Of a stretch of 64,000 bases of DNA, positions 36,654 to 44,618 are shown piece by piece (the stretch's first letter is position 1; each line of letters starts with the position of its first letter). The position numbers were made by a program, and so were the translations under genes. The stretch is from Candidatus Micrarchaeota archaeon (GTDB lineage Archaea; Micrarchaeota; Micrarchaeia; Anstonellales; Bilamarchaeaceae), in assembly GCA_043821365.1 (NCBI GenBank), contig JBDRCX010000002.1, forward strand, positions 64,001 to 128,000, read 5' to 3'. The notes under the pieces were generated by a model. The model did not search any database. It was not told where the DNA came from and worked only from the letters and a program-made list of their open reading frames with translations.

Positions 36654-37169
36654 ATGGGCTGGTTTTCAATGAAGGTGAAATTAAGTCCGGATCTTTCTTA
36701 TATTATAGGCCTTTGGCGTAAATCTCGTTGTAGTGATGGAATTGGAGTTAGGGGAAGTAAAGATCTTCTTGAAATTTTTTCTAAAGAAGTACTTGATAAA
36801 CAATTAATAACTCCTGATAAACTTCTTACCGGAGAAGATAAAGTTTATTTCTATCATACTGCTTACAGAAAATTTTTCCAACAAATAGAAGCCGAACAAC
36901 TCGAGCGTTTCAAGTATCTCAATGAATATGCAGCAAATTATATTGCAGGTATGTTTGATTCTGCTGGTAGTATTGACGATAGGGGAATAGTTTCGTTGTC
37001 ATGTGCAACCAAACAGGATGAGATAATGCTACTACGACTTGGATTTGTGACTAAAAGAAGAGCTGATTATCTTATTATGGAAAGACCCATAGTATTTTTG
37101 ACTTTTATAAAAAACTATGTTAAAATTTTTAAGGACCATAAGGTTTTTGATTACATAAAAAAGAACTAG
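36654..37169 (+). CDS. Free-standing LAGLIDADG-like protein with degenerate catalytic motifs
   Basis: Two LAGLIDADG-like helices, LSYIIGLWRKSR and YIAGMFDSAGSI. Confidence 0.55.
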   Translation: MGWFSMKVKLSPDLSYIIGLWRKSRCSDGIGVRGSKDLLEIFSKEVLDKQLITPDKLLTGEDKVYFYHTAYRKFFQQIEAEQLERFKYLNEYAANYIAGMFDSAGSIDDRGIVSLSCATKQDEIMLLRLGFVTKRRADYLIMERPIVFLTFIKNYVKIFKDHKVFDYIKKN

Positions 37170-38134
37170 ATCTCGGGCATGTAGTTTAATTTCAAATTCT
37201 TTACCAATGAGTAATACCTGTACCTTCTGATGTCATTGGGAAATTTTGATTTGAAATTGTCCATCATTTCAGTAAATTTTTCAAAGCTTTCTATCTCGAC
37301 ATCAAATTCAAAATCACTTGTAACCATGCTTTTTTCAGTGTAAATTATGTTTGGGTGGGATAATACGTTCTCTTTTATCTGTTCTGCATTGTCAAATTTT
37401 CTAAACCAAAGATCAACTTTATAATATTCTTTTCCAAGAGCTCGAAGATTTAATATTGGTCTAAAACCTATTATCACTTTTTTTTCGATTAATTTTTTTA
37501 GGTGATATCTAACAGTGACAACACTTGTTTTCAATTTTTTTGCTATTTCAACCAATGAAGCGCGGGCATTATTTGCCAAAAACACAAGCAGCCTAAGGTC
37601 AATGGGATCTAATTTTTCTGGTTCGCTTTTTATTATTGTTGTGAATGTTAATTTCTCATTTGTATTTGATGGGAGGAGATAGGGTCTAGTAAATTCAAAA
37701 TATTCTGCCATAACTGAAAGGTGGTACTCTGCAAGATACTCACCAAATTTATTTTTAAAATTAAGCCAAAATTCCTCATATTCCCAAGGTGTTTTTGCCC
37801 ATGTTGCAAGTGCAATCTGGAAAGGTCCATTTACTCGATAAAATATTGAAATATTTTTTGAATTAATCAAATAATTCTCTATTTCTCTTTCTATTTCTGG
37901 TGATGTATTCTGCAGGCTTATGTAGGTTCTATATAAGGTAAAACCTAATTTTGAGAAATTCAATACAGTATAAAATCCAGATATTATATCTTTTTGCTGC
38001 AATTGTTTGATTCTATATTTGACAGTTTCTTTGGCTACTCGAATCTTTTTTCCAAGTTCACTATAGCTTATTCTTGCATTTCTATCTAATTCAGATAAGA
38101 TTTTTCTATCAATTAAATCAAGATCAGCCATCAT
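37166..38134 (-). CDS. Tandem (double) Lrp/AsnC-family regulator
   Basis: Two LDxID..L....NAR.S..EL.KK HTH units, each followed by a RAM-like domain. Confidence 0.88.
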   Translation of the reverse strand: MMADLDLIDRKILSELDRNARISYSELGKKIRVAKETVKYRIKQLQQKDIISGFYTVLNFSKLGFTLYRTYISLQNTSPEIEREIENYLINSKNISIFYRVNGPFQIALATWAKTPWEYEEFWLNFKNKFGEYLAEYHLSVMAEYFEFTRPYLLPSNTNEKLTFTTIIKSEPEKLDPIDLRLLVFLANNARASLVEIAKKLKTSVVTVRYHLKKLIEKKVIIGFRPILNLRALGKEYYKVDLWFRKFDNAEQIKENVLSHPNIIYTEKSMVTSDFEFDVEIESFEKFTEMMDNFKSKFPNDIRRYRYYSLVKNLKLNYMPEI

Positions 38135-38961
38135 TCTGCCTCTTGCTCTTTTAAATATTCATCAAACTTTCCCATTAATTCAACAAGTTCTTTTGACGGT
38201 TTTCCGAATTCTATATCGTCTATCTTGTTTATCGGAACTATCCTACTTGAAGTGCTTGTAAGGAAAGCTGATTTGTACCCTTCCAAATCCTCTAATTTTA
38301 TCATCTCTTCTTTTACAGTGTAATTATTTTTCCTTGCTATCTCTATCACATATCTTCTTGTTACTCCATTCAATACCTCTTCTTCAGGTGCAGTTACTAT
38401 CGTCTTCCCATCAATGACAAAAAAATTAGTTCTACTTCCTTCAATTACATTGTTTTGTTTATCTACAAATAGCACATCATAACATCCTTGATTTTTAGCT
38501 TCAGAATAATATACATAACTCGGGAGCATATTCAATGTTTTTGCCTGAGGCATCCAACGTTCATATTTTTTTGTTAATGTTTTTACACCATCACGATATA
38601 ATTTTCTATCAATGAAATGCGGATTTAATGGCAAAATATAAAGGGTTGTATCTTTCTTTTGTTTAGCTCCCATCAACACCATTTTCAGATTAATATTAAT
38701 CTTCTGATCAGATAACTTTTGGATCAATTGGTTTATACTTTTACTAATATCAGTTTTGGAAAAACCATGTTCCATCCTTACCAAACTAGCAGAAGAAAAC
38801 AATCTTGTTATGTGCTCATCCAAAAAGCATGGTTTACTATTCTTTATTTTTATGTTTTCATATACTCCAAAACCATAGTTATGTTCAATATTGAAAAGAG
38901 AAATTACTGCTTCTGAGACCGGGCAAATCTTGTTATTTTTAATAAAATATTTCAATTCCAT
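38131..38961 (-). CDS. PLP-dependent aminotransferase class IV (BCAT/D-amino acid AT/ADC lyase family)
   Basis: YGFGVYE, HITRL, KTLN (PLP Lys), EGSRTNFF, LNGVTR and FLTSTS. Confidence 0.9.
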   Translation of the reverse strand: MELKYFIKNNKICPVSEAVISLFNIEHNYGFGVYENIKIKNSKPCFLDEHITRLFSSASLVRMEHGFSKTDISKSINQLIQKLSDQKININLKMVLMGAKQKKDTTLYILPLNPHFIDRKLYRDGVKTLTKKYERWMPQAKTLNMLPSYVYYSEAKNQGCYDVLFVDKQNNVIEGSRTNFFVIDGKTIVTAPEEEVLNGVTRRYVIEIARKNNYTVKEEMIKLEDLEGYKSAFLTSTSSRIVPINKIDDIEFGKPSKELVELMGKFDEYLKEQEAE

Positions 38962-39080: not shown

Positions 39081-40148
39081 ATGAAGCTTCTATATTTTCA
39101 TGCAAAAGAGTTGCGAATTGAAGCAGGCATTTCAGGTAACCCAAGCAAACAAAGACAAACTGAACGGACTTTGCGCGAGCGTCTTGGCAATGCACTTCCA
39201 ATATTAGATACTCACAATAATCTAACTGAATCAAAAAACGCTCTTCTTGTTTTTGTCTGTGCAGAAAAAGAAGATGGTGTTCTTGATCTTACTAATATTC
39301 GTGATGATATACTAAAATCAAGAGCAATGCTCGGTGTAGATGACATTGTGCTTGGTGCATTTGGTCATTTAAGTGAAGAAACCGCTGATCCATTGTTAGC
39401 AAGAAGAATAATAGATGATCTTCTGAGTATGGTTCAATCCAGTTATCCGTCTACTAAATCATTCCCTTTTGGTTGGGACAAATCACTCGATATAAAGGTT
39501 CCATTACATCATTTTAATGCATCATTCAAGTCCTATGGAACTGGATTAGACTTTTGGAGTTCAGTTGCAACTCATTTTGATGAGTATATGCAAGAAACTG
39601 GTCACTATCATGCACAAGCAACATTGCTTAACAGGTTTTTTGAGTCAATGCCAAGTTCTCAAATACTTGATATCTGTTGTGGTGGAGGATTTGCCATACA
39701 TCATCTGACAAAAACCATTCATCCGGAGAATCAAGTTTTTGGTTTAGATAGTTCTGAAAAGATGCTTGAAATAGCAAGAAAAAGATCTAGTGGTAGTTTT
39801 ATTTGTGGAAAGGCAGAGTATTTAGATCTATTTTTCAATGGACATAAATTTGACGTTGTGCTTGCTATCAATGCAGTTGCATATGTTGATATGGTGTTGG
39901 TCCTATCAAGACTTCGTAAAATAATGAAGCCGGGATCGGGGTTTATTGTGATGGAAGAAGAGCCATTTATCTCTGGGTTTTCGATCCCATCAGACACAAA
40001 AATACCTGAAGAACTAAAATTAGCCCATCTAAGTATCAAGGAAATAGAAAAGTCTGTTATTCAGAGTGGTTTCAGGTTAATTGCCAAAACAGATAGTCCA
40101 ATAGATCAAAGGCACAGATTAGTTGGTTTAGCATTCCAATTAGTTTAG
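39081..40148 (+). CDS. Fusion: archaeal ThrRS editing (DTD-fold) domain + class I SAM methyltransferase
   Basis: N-terminal MKLLYFHA, LVFVCAEKED, AFGHLS and PFGWDK; C-terminal ILDICCGGG, GLDSSEKMLE and FDVV. Confidence 0.75.
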   Translation: MKLLYFHAKELRIEAGISGNPSKQRQTERTLRERLGNALPILDTHNNLTESKNALLVFVCAEKEDGVLDLTNIRDDILKSRAMLGVDDIVLGAFGHLSEETADPLLARRIIDDLLSMVQSSYPSTKSFPFGWDKSLDIKVPLHHFNASFKSYGTGLDFWSSVATHFDEYMQETGHYHAQATLLNRFFESMPSSQILDICCGGGFAIHHLTKTIHPENQVFGLDSSEKMLEIARKRSSGSFICGKAEYLDLFFNGHKFDVVLAINAVAYVDMVLVLSRLRKIMKPGSGFIVMEEEPFISGFSIPSDTKIPEELKLAHLSIKEIEKSVIQSGFRLIAKTDSPIDQRHRLVGLAFQLV

Positions 40149-40236: not shown

Positions 40237-42651
40237 ATGAGAATATTAACAATTCATGCAGATTACATAGAAGTAGAACCAATGAAGAAGGCAATAAAGG
40301 ATGCAGAAGAACTGAAGCATAAAGGAAAAGAAAGATTCGATGAAGTTCTTGTTGTATTTACTGCCGTAGAAAAAGATGATGATGAAAACAGTGGAGAAAG
40401 GCTTGCTAATGAGACAAAGTCAGTTGCTGATCAAGTCAAAACAAAAAAATTATTACTATATCCTCTTGTTCACCTAACATCAAAACCATCCTCTCCATCA
40501 CTTGCAAAAAAAGTTATGGCAAAAGCAGAATCAATCCTTAAAGAACAAGGATTCGAAGTTTCCCACTCTCCTTTTGGATGGTACAAAGGTTATACACTCA
40601 AGTGCAAAGGTCACCCACTTTCTGAACTATCAAGAGAGTTTTATGCTAGTGAAACAGCAGAAATATCTAAGGAATTAGTATCTGATAATAGCACATACAA
40701 AAAATTGATGGACTTTCTTAACCAAAATAAGGCCACCTACAAGCTTATTGATCATCCACCCGAGGGCAGAACAGCAATAGTAAGTAAGATGAGAGGCAAC
40801 CTGCTTTCTCAGGCAGCGCATTGTATAATAGTAATGATAGATGTTGGAAAGAACAAGAAGAAATATATTCTAGCTGTTGTTCCTGGGGATTCCAGAGTGG
40901 ATATGGACGCAGTCAAATTATTATTTAACGGTTCCTATGCCTCTTTTGCTGATAAGGAGACTGCTGAGAGATTATCTGGAAGTATCTCAGGAACAATCCT
41001 ACCGTTTACTTTTAACCAAGAACTAGAACTAGTGGTGGATCCGAGATTGTTGGAACATGATGAACTATTCTTTAATGCAGCCCGTTTGGATAAGTCTTTG
41101 ATACTAAAGTCAAGCGACTACAAACGCATTGCTAAGCCTACGATAAAGTCAATATCTGTGATTTCTGAGGAAGGAGAAAAAGATGTTAGCAATGCCTTTA
41201 AAGCCGAGAAGAAGCTTGTGTCGATTTTTCATATTCTTGACAGCGAGGGAGAAGTACACAAGATTGAATATGACAAGGAAAAGAAGAAATTTGCTGGTTT
41301 CGACTTCTCAAACCATGAGAACCTGAAGAAATTTGCATCATATGAGATGGCCAAGGATAGGGCAGTGAATGAAGAACCACCACACGTGGCTCTGATGAAA
41401 AAGCACGAACTGGTGGATTATGAGCCTGGTTCTGATCCTGGAAATCTTAGATATTATCCAAAAGGACGTTTCATGAAAGGTCTTATTGAGAGATATGTTA
41501 CCCAGGTTGTGAAGCAGAATGGTGGAATGGAAATCGAATCACCAATCATGTATGATTTTGAACATCCTTCACTGAAAAGCTATCTTAACAGATTCCCTGC
41601 AAGACAGTATACAATTGAAACGCCCAACAAAAAGGTGTTCTTAAGGTTTGCTGCATGCTTCGGTGGCTTCCTTATGGCACATGATACTAACATTTCCTAT
41701 AAGCAGCTTCCTGTGTGGCTCTACGAGCTTACTAGATATAGCTTTAGGGTGGAGCAAAGAGGAGAGCTGACTGGTTTGAGGCGGTTGAGGTCATTTACTA
41801 TGCCTGATTGCCATGCATTCTGCAAAGACGAGGGACAAGCAAAAGCTGAAATAATAAGAAGGTTTGAAATGAGTAGGGAAATGCAGAACAAGATGGGTAT
41901 AAATTCCAAAAACGATCTTGAATTCGCAATAAGGGTAACACGACAGTTTTATGAGAAAAATAAGGAATTTCTTGTCGATCTGGTGAAGCGGTGGGGCAAA
42001 CCAACACTTCTTGAAATGTGGGACGAACAGTTTTTCTACTTCGTATTTAAGTATGAATTTAATTTTGTTGACAATCTTGGCAAGTGTTCTGCACTTACCA
42101 CTGATCAAATTGATATCGAGAACGCAAAAAGATACGGAATTGAGTACGTTGACGAGAATGGAGAAAAGAAGAACCCATTAATATTACATCTTTCTCCATC
42201 TGGTGCAGTTGAAAGAATAATATATGCACTGCTTGAAAAAGCAGCATTTGATATGAAAAAAGGTAACGTCCCCAGCCTTCCATTGTGGCTATCGCCAACG
42301 CAGATCCGCATAATCCCAGTTTCAAAAGAGAAACATCTTAATTTCAGCGAAAAACTAGCAGAAAGAATTTCAAATATGGATATCCGAGTTGATGTTGATG
42401 ATCGAGATGAAAGCGTTGGTAAAAAGATACGAAATGCTGGCCAGGAGTGGACTCCTTATACCATTGTAGTTGGTGACAAGGAAATTGAGAGCCAAGATAA
42501 ATTTATGGTAAGGGACAGGGAAAATAACCAGGAAAGAGAAATGCACATTGAAGAGTTGGTAAAAACAATAAAAGAAAAAACAGAAGGAATGCCTTTTGAT
42601 ACTCTTCCACTTCCGAGGAACTTAAGCAAGCGAATTATTTTTGTTGGTTGA
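40237..42651 (+). CDS. thrS: Archaeal threonyl-tRNA synthetase with an inserted YbaK/ProXp domain
   Basis: N-terminal editing domain (PFGWYK...CKGHPLSELSR); insert at residues ~153-307; catalytic LRFAAC, FRVEQRGEL.GL.RLR.FTMPD.H and HLSPSGAVER; anticodon-binding domain. Confidence 0.96.
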   Translation: MRILTIHADYIEVEPMKKAIKDAEELKHKGKERFDEVLVVFTAVEKDDDENSGERLANETKSVADQVKTKKLLLYPLVHLTSKPSSPSLAKKVMAKAESILKEQGFEVSHSPFGWYKGYTLKCKGHPLSELSREFYASETAEISKELVSDNSTYKKLMDFLNQNKATYKLIDHPPEGRTAIVSKMRGNLLSQAAHCIIVMIDVGKNKKKYILAVVPGDSRVDMDAVKLLFNGSYASFADKETAERLSGSISGTILPFTFNQELELVVDPRLLEHDELFFNAARLDKSLILKSSDYKRIAKPTIKSISVISEEGEKDVSNAFKAEKKLVSIFHILDSEGEVHKIEYDKEKKKFAGFDFSNHENLKKFASYEMAKDRAVNEEPPHVALMKKHELVDYEPGSDPGNLRYYPKGRFMKGLIERYVTQVVKQNGGMEIESPIMYDFEHPSLKSYLNRFPARQYTIETPNKKVFLRFAACFGGFLMAHDTNISYKQLPVWLYELTRYSFRVEQRGELTGLRRLRSFTMPDCHAFCKDEGQAKAEIIRRFEMSREMQNKMGINSKNDLEFAIRVTRQFYEKNKEFLVDLVKRWGKPTLLEMWDEQFFYFVFKYEFNFVDNLGKCSALTTDQIDIENAKRYGIEYVDENGEKKNPLILHLSPSGAVERIIYALLEKAAFDMKKGNVPSLPLWLSPTQIRIIPVSKEKHLNFSEKLAERISNMDIRVDVDDRDESVGKKIRNAGQEWTPYTIVVGDKEIESQDKFMVRDRENNQEREMHIEELVKTIKEKTEGMPFDTLPLPRNLSKRIIFVG

Positions 42652-42788: not shown

Positions 42789-44618
42789 ATGATACAATTC
42801 TGCCCTATGGCGGGTAGGCTAGTCAGTGCTTTTGATGCAAGACCAAATTCAAAACAACGAAATATGCAATTTGATGGTGCACCACTAGTTGAAAGAAATC
42901 TTACTTTGGTTAATAGATTTGGTGAACAAAGGTCATTACGTGGTCTTGTTCCCTTGGGTATTGATAAAGTCGAAGAGGTTCAATTTATTCTTTCACAAAA
43001 CGGTGGTACCTGCAATATTGAAAAAGGAACCGGTGATCTATCAGAGTTTACGTGGATAAAAAGCATTGCATTAAGTGATGGGTTTACTGTTGCTGATTGG
43101 CTTCAAATAAGAAACAGAAGTATGGAATTTGAGATTGGCAGATTGAAAGACGGCCGTTCTTTTTGGGAGAATGCCAACACACTAAAAGTCAAAGAAGCAG
43201 GTGCAACTGTTATTACAGAAGATTATGGTATGACTGCAGAATTGCCTGATACTAGTGACATACTAAATGGAAAGAAAGCTTGCGGAGGTTGCGGAGGGGA
43301 CATGTCAAAAGATTCCCTTGAAGCTGCCAGAATTGCCATAAGATATGGTTGGGATAGGGATGAATTTTCTGTCAATCCTGATACAGGCGAAGTAAAAGAG
43401 CAAGCAAAATATGCTGATGGTCTTGCAATCTCTATTGATGTAACTCAAATAATTCCAGGCCCTAATAATCCTATTGTTCAAGATGTATATACAAAGTCTA
43501 ATGAGACTGGCGGGTTTGGAAATGGGTTATTAGTAAAATTACTTCTTAGTAGCCAATCTTCTGAAGAAAGCTTCAGAAACCAACCTGTTATATTAACCTC
43601 TCCAATACCAGTCACCCAGACTGATGTTCCAAAACCAGAGAAACAAATGTGTGAACAATACACACCAGAAGAGTCTATGATCTTACGTTTATTGATGAAT
43701 CCAACAGAAAGAAAATTATGGGGGCGTCTTTATGGTCTTCCTGATGATGAAGCTTCCCCTATTGTTCTTGAAAAACTCGTTCTACAATCCCTTCAAACAA
43801 TAAGAGCACCAACTCCACTATCAGTTCAACATCAAAAACAATTACCAACAAAGTCCCAAGATGAAGACAAACCAGTACAACAACCAAAACTCCCAAGATT
43901 AGTTTTCTCATCAATTAAAATAGATACAGAATCCAAACCACAAGAAGTTTCATCAAAACAAAAACATCCGGTGCAAGTCTCAACTCAACAACATTTTCAA
44001 AAACCAAAATCACCAGGAATAAAACAAAAACCAGTTAGAACTAAAACACCCAAGAAAAAACCAGTTTCTGAATTGGAATCAACAAGAACAAACAAAAAGA
44101 GGCATGAAATACGTGATGCCGAACCTACTGGAAAAATACCAAAATCAAGAAAGGCTCCAAAACCAGTTAGTCTGGATGAAGTAAAGGACGAAACTAAAAA
44201 ACCAAAAAGAAGAAAATCTACGAAGAAAACATCAGACGAGCTGGAATCTACTAAAAAACTATCAGATGAAAAGAAAAAAGCTAAAAAAAGAAAACACCCA
44301 GAACCAGAAATCGAAGGAATTCAAAAGAAAGAAAAAAAGGCAAGAAGAATCAAGAAACAGTTGGAATCACCAGAGCCTCTAAAGAAACAAAAAACCAAAA
44401 GAATAAATGATCAAATGGAACAAGATGAAAAAACCAGAAAAAAATCAAAGATCCATCATCCAGCAGCATCAAAAAGAAAATCGAATAATCCTAAAAACCA
44501 TACTTTAGCAAAGAAAAAAAGACGTAAAAAACGAGTTAGTCGCTACTATCTATTAGATATGCTTGGAGTTATAAATAAAAGAAAAAAATCTAATGGAAAA
44601 GTAGTGGTAAGAAATTAA
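42789..44618 (+). CDS. Hypothetical protein: globular N-terminus (CGGC motif) and long Lys/Glu/Ser/Pro-rich basic tail
   Basis: 609-aa open frame; the C-terminal ~250 aa are low-complexity and basic. Confidence 0.7.
   Translation: MIQFCPMAGRLVSAFDARPNSKQRNMQFDGAPLVERNLTLVNRFGEQRSLRGLVPLGIDKVEEVQFILSQNGGTCNIEKGTGDLSEFTWIKSIALSDGFTVADWLQIRNRSMEFEIGRLKDGRSFWENANTLKVKEAGATVITEDYGMTAELPDTSDILNGKKACGGCGGDMSKDSLEAARIAIRYGWDRDEFSVNPDTGEVKEQAKYADGLAISIDVTQIIPGPNNPIVQDVYTKSNETGGFGNGLLVKLLLSSQSSEESFRNQPVILTSPIPVTQTDVPKPEKQMCEQYTPEESMILRLLMNPTERKLWGRLYGLPDDEASPIVLEKLVLQSLQTIRAPTPLSVQHQKQLPTKSQDEDKPVQQPKLPRLVFSSIKIDTESKPQEVSSKQKHPVQVSTQQHFQKPKSPGIKQKPVRTKTPKKKPVSELESTRTNKKRHEIRDAEPTGKIPKSRKAPKPVSLDEVKDETKKPKRRKSTKKTSDELESTKKLSDEKKKAKKRKHPEPEIEGIQKKEKKARRIKKQLESPEPLKKQKTKRINDQMEQDEKTRKKSKIHHPAASKRKSNNPKNHTLAKKKRRKKRVSRYYLLDMLGVINKRKKSNGKVVVRN

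What the first reader, a model, noticed from the sequence alone, without database searches (positions are those of the whole stretch)
40693..41157. ThrRS carries an inserted YbaK/ProXp (YeaK/ProXp-ST1-like) domain with the conserved Lys replaced by His
Seen: residues ~153-307 (LMDFLNQNKATYKLIDHPPEGRT...QAAHCII...VVPGDSRVD...GTILPF...FFNAARLDKSLILKSSDY) lie between the archaeal editing domain and the catalytic core. They closely follow the YeaK pattern and retain the GxxxP loop, but have His (codon 40819) where INS-superfamily members have a conserved Lys. Established: INS/YbaK domains occur in ProRS or free-standing; ProXp-ST1 deacylates Ser- and Thr-tRNAs; archaeal ThrRS edits Ser-tRNA(Thr) with a DTD-fold domain. 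Inference: this is a two-editing-domain ThrRS, and the insert must avoid hydrolysing cognate Thr-tRNA, so it may be re-tuned or inactivated. I am not aware of this architecture being described.
Basis: partly seen in the sequence, partly recalled or inferred. Interest (0 to 1): 0.75.

Follow-up and report, generated by a model that had tools for sequence, protein, structure and literature searches.

The report
FthB-type proofreading domain inside threonyl-tRNA synthetase
The enzyme that loads threonine onto tRNA in this small archaeon carries a second proofreading domain whose closest studied relative removes the toxic look-alike fluorothreonine; the same fusion recurs in over 100 microbes, so it probably screens out threonine mimics that normal proofreading misses.

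Summary
Confirmed: the only ThrRS found in this Micrarchaeota genome (40237-42651, 804 aa) carries an in-frame YbaK/ProXp-fold domain (residues 153-307) with His195 at the conserved INS Lys. The domain is of the FthB type (59% identical to the S. cattleya fluorothreonyl-tRNA deacylase, 36% to YeaK). The fusion recurs in 117 full-length ThrRSs on three scaffolds (DPANN archaea, CPR, Chloroflexota). All keep their native editing motif, so it adds to Ser editing. Lys-to-His/Asn occurs in 25/117 fused copies and in no free copy examined. His inserts are under purifying selection (dN/dS 0.08, 0.14) and show recent transfer. This gene is a chimera: native N-terminal editing domain plus foreign insert and core, at the syntenic thrS locus; 0/39 genus relatives have the insert. 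Best reading (0.45): a cis third sieve against threonine analogues, attenuated by His. Activity and substrate are untested. I found no paper on this architecture, but three key papers were unreadable. The scan noted this gene earlier from an overlapping window, and YbaK fusions to TrpRS elsewhere; no ThrRS fusion on other DNA appeared.

The parts
40237..42651 (+). thrS, 804-aa archaeal-type threonyl-tRNA synthetase, the only ThrRS found in the genome
   Evidence: (NF003068, 798 bits)
40237..40638 (+). Archaeal N-terminal DTD-fold editing domain (res 1-134), motif intact; native to the genus
   Evidence: (genus clade 97/92)
40639..40692 (+). Flexible linker (res 135-152), approximate crossover between native N-terminus and foreign insert plus core
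   Evidence: genus matches end at res ~135-151; pLDDT <50 at 125-150
40693..41157 (+). FthB-type YbaK/ProXp (INS superfamily) domain, res 153-307
40819..40821 (+). His195 (CAT) in place of the near-invariant INS Lys
40990..41004 (+). GxxxP loop G252-P256, intact
41074..41091 (+). N280-D285 motif, FthB-type (Ala-Arg where YeaK has Gly-Met)
41377..42276 (+). Class II catalytic core; C474, H526, H651 (likely Zn ligands) invariant; groups with foreign insert-bearing ThrRSs
   Evidence: (100/100)
42301..42579 (+). Anticodon-binding domain, res 689-781

Best explanation
The insert is an FthB-type aminoacyl-tRNA deacylase captured in cis by ThrRS as a third sieve. ThrRS charges some threonine mimics (4-fluorothreonine and beta-ethynylserine are documented; other 4-substituted threonines are plausible) onto tRNA(Thr). 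The native editing domain is built to take Ser and reject Thr, so Thr-sized mimics would escape it. The tethered FthB domain binds the CCA end of the mischarged tRNA and hydrolyses the analogue while mostly sparing Thr. The synthetase already holds the tRNA, so the Lys that docks the C75-A76 phosphate in free enzymes is partly dispensable; His or Asn would weaken docking and may lower wasteful Thr-tRNA hydrolysis at high local concentration. The module spreads by recombination between thrS genes of scavenging microbes as a resistance trait. SHOWN: fusion, fold, FthB affinity, intact native editors, Lys loss limited to fusions, purifying selection, chimeric origin. INFERRED: catalysis, substrate, the role of His, reach to the CCA end.
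For: 59% identity without gaps to the pSCAT gene lying between fluorothreonine transaldolase and an EamA exporter, i.e. FthB by gene order, against 36% to YeaK. Of 60 positions at least 97% invariant in free relatives, the insert keeps 55, FthB 59, YeaK 33. FthB selectively hydrolyses fluorothreonyl-tRNA(Thr) (PMC13149037; PMC7408626). Of 120 listed long proteins with this domain, 114 are full ThrRS, 4 are ThrRS pieces and 2 are cupin fusions; none is ProRS, SerRS, ValRS or AlaRS, which ties the substrate to tRNA(Thr). All 117 full fusions keep the native editing motif. His/Asn in 25/117 fused, against 0/120, 0/55 and 0/115 in three free sets, with about 5 state changes on the tree. dN/dS of His inserts 0.14 and 0.08. 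Synonymous divergence dips in the insert of His pair L040/L041: 0.08 against 0.36 and 0.50 in the flanks, p 1e-9 and 2e-20. Chimera supported by AU tests, p 3e-36 and 0.002.
Against: Lys-to-Ala dramatically impairs deacylation in every INS member tested (PMC10164551), and the ProRS K279A cis domain is editing-defective (PMC3973320), so tethering does not automatically rescue. Most free relatives are not near fluorothreonine genes (0 FTase and 1 FthC-like neighbour in 55 loci), so fluorothreonine selectivity may be special to producers. This copy also changes other conserved residues (K202D, K206N, E180A). The natural analogue in these habitats is unknown. Domain placement in the full-length model is uncertain (pTM 0.61). 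The selection and transfer evidence comes from a few related His sequences and does not include this gene itself, whose dS is saturated.
Confidence: 0.45

Rival explanations
1. The His and Asn copies are catalytically silent or nearly so and are kept as binding modules: an analogue sensor or sponge, or a clamp for aminoacyl-tRNA. The Lys-bearing fusions would still be active editors.
For: The Lys is needed for activity in all tested INS members. All other pocket residues are conserved, which suits binding as well as catalysis. Other basic residues are also relaxed in fused copies (K/R columns 0.86 against 0.95 for the rest).
Against: Catalysis in this fold uses the tRNA A76 2'-OH; the Lys is a docking residue. 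His inserts moved recently between genes, which needs a benefit that mere binding explains less easily.
Confidence: 0.2
2. A YeaK/ProXp-ST1-like generalist: it removes Ser from tRNA(Thr) as a back-up, or Ser/Thr from other tRNAs, and fusion to ThrRS (plus His) protects Thr-tRNA(Thr). This is.
For: FthB belongs to the ProXp-ST1 cluster, and ThrRS shields Thr-tRNA(Thr) from ProXp-ST1 (PMC11295145). Free relatives lack producer-cluster context.
Against: The insert differs from YeaK at most subfamily-invariant sites (33/60 shared). Native Ser editors are intact in 117/117 fusions, so back-up Ser editing is redundant.
Confidence: 0.22
3. A neutral passenger dropped into a permissive linker, now decaying (His as the first step).
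For: The same junction holds an unrelated ~150-aa insert in genus relative G003. Distribution is patchy: 5/176 genomes of the order, 3/401 of the phylum sample.
Against: dN/dS 0.08-0.14; His inserts are more conserved than the cores beside them; the partner is almost always ThrRS; 55/60 invariant sites are kept.
Confidence: 0.06
4. Assembly chimera of a free YbaK gene and thrS.
For: Reads could not be checked. The gene is a phylogenetic mosaic.
Against: One open frame; the same junction in 27 other proteins from many assemblies; syntenic flanks.
Confidence: 0.01

Closest known systems
FthB, fluorothreonyl-tRNA deacylase of Streptomyces (Streptantibioticus) cattleya (McMurry and Chang 2017, as summarised in PMC13149037 and PMC7408626)
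   Same: 59% identity over all 155 residues without gaps; same fold, GxxxP loop and subfamily motifs; acts on tRNA(Thr) charged by ThrRS.
   Different: FthB is free-standing, keeps the Lys and sits in a producer's cluster with a transaldolase and an exporter. Here the domain is fused into the housekeeping ThrRS of an archaeon in which no transaldolase was found, and has His.
E. coli YeaK / ProXp-ST1 (Ser/Thr-tRNA deacylase)
   Same: Same INS cluster and fold; 36% identity.
   Different: Shares only 33 of 60 subfamily-invariant positions; free-standing; hydrolyses Thr-tRNA(Thr) in vitro.
ProRS INS domain and ProXp-ala-ProRS fusions
   Same: An INS-fold deacylase built into a class IIa synthetase for cis editing.
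   Different: Host is ThrRS; the domain lies N-terminal to the core, not between motifs 2 and 3; it comes on top of an intact native editor; 16-18% identity.
Archaeal ThrRS with DTD-fold N-terminal editing domain (NCBIfam NF003068)
   Same: N-terminal editor, catalytic core and anticodon domain are all present with intact motifs.
   Different: An extra ~170-180 residues between editor and core; relatives without the insert are ~620 aa.

Membership tests
INS/YbaK/ProXp superfamily | YbaK/ProX fold | tested here: met
   pLDDT 95.6; Foldseek 1WDV TM 0.87, 2CX5 0.83, 1DBX 0.81; PF04073 above cut-off
INS/YbaK/ProXp superfamily | GxxxP loop | tested here: met
   G252-P256
INS/YbaK/ProXp superfamily | Strictly conserved Lys that docks the C75-A76 phosphate | tested here: not met
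   His195; 92 of 117 fusions keep Lys
INS/YbaK/ProXp superfamily | Aminoacyl-tRNA deacylase activity | not testable with these tools
   needs an assay
FthB subfamily | Closer in sequence to FthB than to YeaK; subfamily-invariant residues kept | tested here: met
   59% against 36%; 55/60 positions; hits fall in two bands, 52-62% and 29-38%
FthB subfamily | Free-standing gene beside fluorothreonine transaldolase and FthC exporter | tested here: not met
   fused to ThrRS; no transaldolase found in the 87%-complete genome, only an SHMT-like hit at 29%
FthB subfamily | Selective hydrolysis of fluorothreonyl- over threonyl-tRNA(Thr) | not testable with these tools
   needs an assay
YeaK/ProXp-ST1 proper | YeaK-type residues at subfamily-diagnostic sites | tested here: not met
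   e.g. T179/C, C196/A, L255/P, R283/M insert/YeaK
Archaeal-type ThrRS | DTD-fold editing domain with intact motif, class II core with Cys/His/His, anticodon domain | tested here: met

The most novel reading that the evidence does not exclude
ThrRS has repeatedly acquired a mobile, cis-acting anti-mimic editing module from the FthB resistance family. This would be a synthetase with a built-in proofreading domain against non-proteinogenic threonine analogues, spreading by recombination among DPANN archaea, CPR and Chloroflexota. Its His/Asn variants would be active INS-fold deacylases without the supposedly essential Lys, and they would point to a widespread, still unidentified natural threonine antimetabolite.
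Probability: 0.35. Interest if true: 0.82.

Novelty: new variant of a known kind. Interest (0 to 1): 0.66.

Why it matters
A 2024 review knows INS-superfamily domains only in ProRS or free-standing. A ThrRS-fused class of at least 117 proteins extends this and gives natural experiments on two open points: whether the conserved INS Lys is needed once a synthetase delivers the tRNA, and what the many FthB-like proteins outside fluorothreonine producers act on. Fusion almost only to ThrRS is a Rosetta-stone hint that this subfamily works on tRNA(Thr). If the module is resistance to threonine mimics, it marks chemical pressure on small-genome scavengers and offers a ready cis-editing part for synthetase engineering.

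Tried and rejected
McMurry and Chang 2017, Liu 2015, Danhart 2017 and Bartholow 2014 are not held and Kuzmishin Nagy 2020 has no open copy, so an earlier mention of the fusion there cannot be excluded. Nine literature searches found no description of it. Replacement of a lost Ser editor was rejected: motifs are intact in 117/117. The host as a fluorothreonine producer was rejected as far as the assembly shows: no transaldolase; the one SAM_HAT gene belongs to a family present in 8 of 14 control genomes and was not shown to be a fluorinase. A shared neighbourhood of free relatives was not found, except a recurrent cupin gene. The number of independent fusions is unresolved: the domain tree needs 4 changes but starred branches do not exclude one origin. 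The synonymous dip is absent in CPR and Chloroflexota pairs, so recent transfer is claimed only for the archaeal His clade. DNA for a Lys-bearing control pair was unavailable. No reliable intron-less tRNA(Thr) was found in the assembly, so identity elements were not examined.

Full report
Observation. The ORF 40237-42651 encodes an 804-aa archaeal-type ThrRS. Pfam places the archaeal editing domain at 1-134, a tRNA_edit (YbaK) domain at 199-297, the class II core at 458-668 and the anticodon domain at 689-781. Residue 195 is His (CAT at 40819) and aligns with the conserved Lys of YbaK, YeaK and FthB. The insert folds confidently (pLDDT 95.6) as a YbaK/ProX domain (TM up to 0.87). In the full-length model it lies between low-confidence linkers (125-150, 310-321; pTM 0.61). 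It is the only ThrRS found in the genome. The host is a Micrarchaeota archaeon: genes from two same-family genomes are identical to records labelled Ca. Micrarchaeota and Ca. Bilamarchaeaceae.

What the domain is. An earlier scan note on a fluorothreonine resistance pair prompted a test against FthB. The insert's plasmid hits fall in two bands, 52-62% (actinomycetes) and 29-38% (mostly YeaK-like). The 59% hit on S. cattleya pSCAT lies between an SHMT plus aldolase-II protein (fluorothreonine transaldolase) and an EamA exporter, the fthB/fthC arrangement described in PMC7162832 and PMC7408626; the record has no annotation, so the identification rests on gene order. The insert aligns to it without gaps at 59% identity, against 36% for E. 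coli YeaK. Of 60 positions nearly invariant in 120 free relatives, the insert keeps 55, FthB 59 and YeaK 33. FthB is a ProXp-ST1-related deacylase that selectively removes fluorothreonine from tRNA(Thr); from memory of the 2017 abstract the preference is about 670-fold, which I could not check. So the domain works like FthB by sequence, but fails two FthB features (free-standing cluster gene, Lys), and I do not file it as FthB.

How common. Two searches gave 117 full-length ThrRS fusions at 90% clustering, a lower bound: 13 with archaeal editor, insert and archaeal core; 15 with archaeal editor, insert and bacterial core; 89 with the domain at the N-terminus of a bacterial ThrRS, mostly without TGS. 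Hosts include Micrarchaeota, Woesearchaeota, Peregrinibacteria/Peribacteria, Gottesmanbacteria, Amesbacteria, Chloroflexota and single bins labelled Methanosarcinales and Gammaproteobacteria. Among the 120 long proteins listed, 118 are ThrRS or ThrRS pieces and 2 are cupin fusions; no ProRS, SerRS, ValRS or AlaRS fusion appeared (the search scored only 8000 candidates and its query included fused sequences). Rare other partners are a PLP decarboxylase, a P450 and one Lys/Asp/Asn-type ligase paralog. The trait is rare near this genome: 5 of 176 genomes of the order (4 fused, 1 free), 0 of 39 others in the genus, 3 of 401 in a phylum sample. All 117 keep their native editing motif, so the domain is additive.

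The Lys. In fusions the position is Lys 92, Asn 16, His 9. It is Lys in 120/120 nearest free relatives, although the His query would favour free His copies; in 55/55 free GTDB loci; and in 111/115 diverse free representatives, the rest being 3 Arg and 1 Glu. With the column removed, the tree needs about 5 state changes, with a large Asn clade in CPR and a His group in archaea; kin are not independent, so this is a few events, not 25. Literature: this Lys docks the C75-A76 phosphate, Ala mutants are severely impaired in all members tested, and chemistry uses the A76 2'-OH. His inserts are not decaying: dN/dS is 0.14 (P0004/P0005) and 0.08 (P0003/L036). In L040/L041 the synonymous difference is 0.08 in the insert, 0.36 upstream and 0.50 downstream (p 1e-9, 2e-20); a weaker dip against the core is seen in other His pairs and none in CPR or Chloroflexota pairs. 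The simplest reading is recent transfer of the His insert between archaeal thrS genes, on a small sample.

Origin of this gene. The N-terminal editor is up to 76% identical to genus relatives and sits in their clade (97/92); the core is 53-58% identical to them and groups with foreign insert-bearing enzymes (100/100). AU tests reject the core with the genus (p 3e-36) and the editor with the foreign group (p 0.002). The gene occupies the genus's thrS site between purM and the M50-MBF1-FEN1 genes. GC3 is 0.21 in the editor and 0.38 in insert and core. So the 3' part of native thrS was replaced in place by an insert-bearing version; the donor is not identified.

Mechanism. ThrRS charges Thr mimics such as fluorothreonine and beta-ethynylserine. 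The archaeal editor is specific for Ser and avoids Thr; that Thr-sized mimics escape it is my inference. An FthB-type domain in cis would fill this gap without destroying Thr-tRNA, and tethering could make the docking Lys partly dispensable or make its loss useful as attenuation. The host has no threonine synthase above cut-off (87% complete), consistent with scavenging and so exposure to environmental mimics. I give this 0.45. Rivals: YeaK-like Ser/Thr generalist (0.22), silent binder (0.20), passenger (0.06), artefact (0.01). The main weakness is that most free relatives lie outside fluorothreonine clusters, so the true substrate is unknown, and that no INS domain without this Lys has been shown to be active in the papers I could read.

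Novelty. The 2024 review lists INS-family members as single-domain except in ProRS, and nine searches found no ThrRS fusion; databases label these proteins plain threonine--tRNA ligase. Three key papers were unreadable. Verdict: a real and recurrent new variant of a known kind, interest 0.66.

Noticed in passing
window 39081-40148 (+): Gene directly upstream of thrS: a divergent ThrRS-editing-like (DTD-fold) domain with a degenerate editing motif, fused to a SAM methyltransferase; homologues in 8/40 genus genomes, some without the methyltransferase.
   Followed up: partly
window 37166-38961 (-): Lrp-type regulator with two HTH domains and a class IV aminotransferase, divergent from the editing-like gene; the cassette is missing from the syntenic site in seven relatives examined, yet also precedes thrS in G024 (L135). 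Possibly a second amino-acid quality-control module.
   Followed up: partly
L005 (G003 thrS), residues ~140-295: A same-genus ThrRS has a different ~150-aa insert at the same editor/core junction, not homologous to the FthB domain; the junction looks like an insertion hotspot.
   Followed up: no
L029-L032: Several genus members have hybrid ThrRSs: archaeal editor, degenerate bacterial N2 domain, bacterial-type core.
   Followed up: partly
L110, L111, L130: In some bacterial loci (two are Chloroflexota) an EamA transporter gene lies directly upstream of the FthB-ThrRS fusion, echoing the fthB/fthC pair.
   Followed up: partly
L046, L047, L058, L072, L075, L076, L079, L091, L105, L115, L117; P0252, P0254: Free FthB-like genes are often next to, or fused with, a small cupin, perhaps a partner in analogue handling.
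   Followed up: no
window 42789-44618 (+): 609-aa ORF with no Pfam hit and a long Lys/Arg-rich C-terminal half, between thrS and the M50 peptidase; no match at this site in seven relatives.
   Followed up: no
L001 (G000 contig C6): A second, free-standing YbaK-family gene (~155 aa) of another subfamily that keeps the Lys.
   Followed up: no
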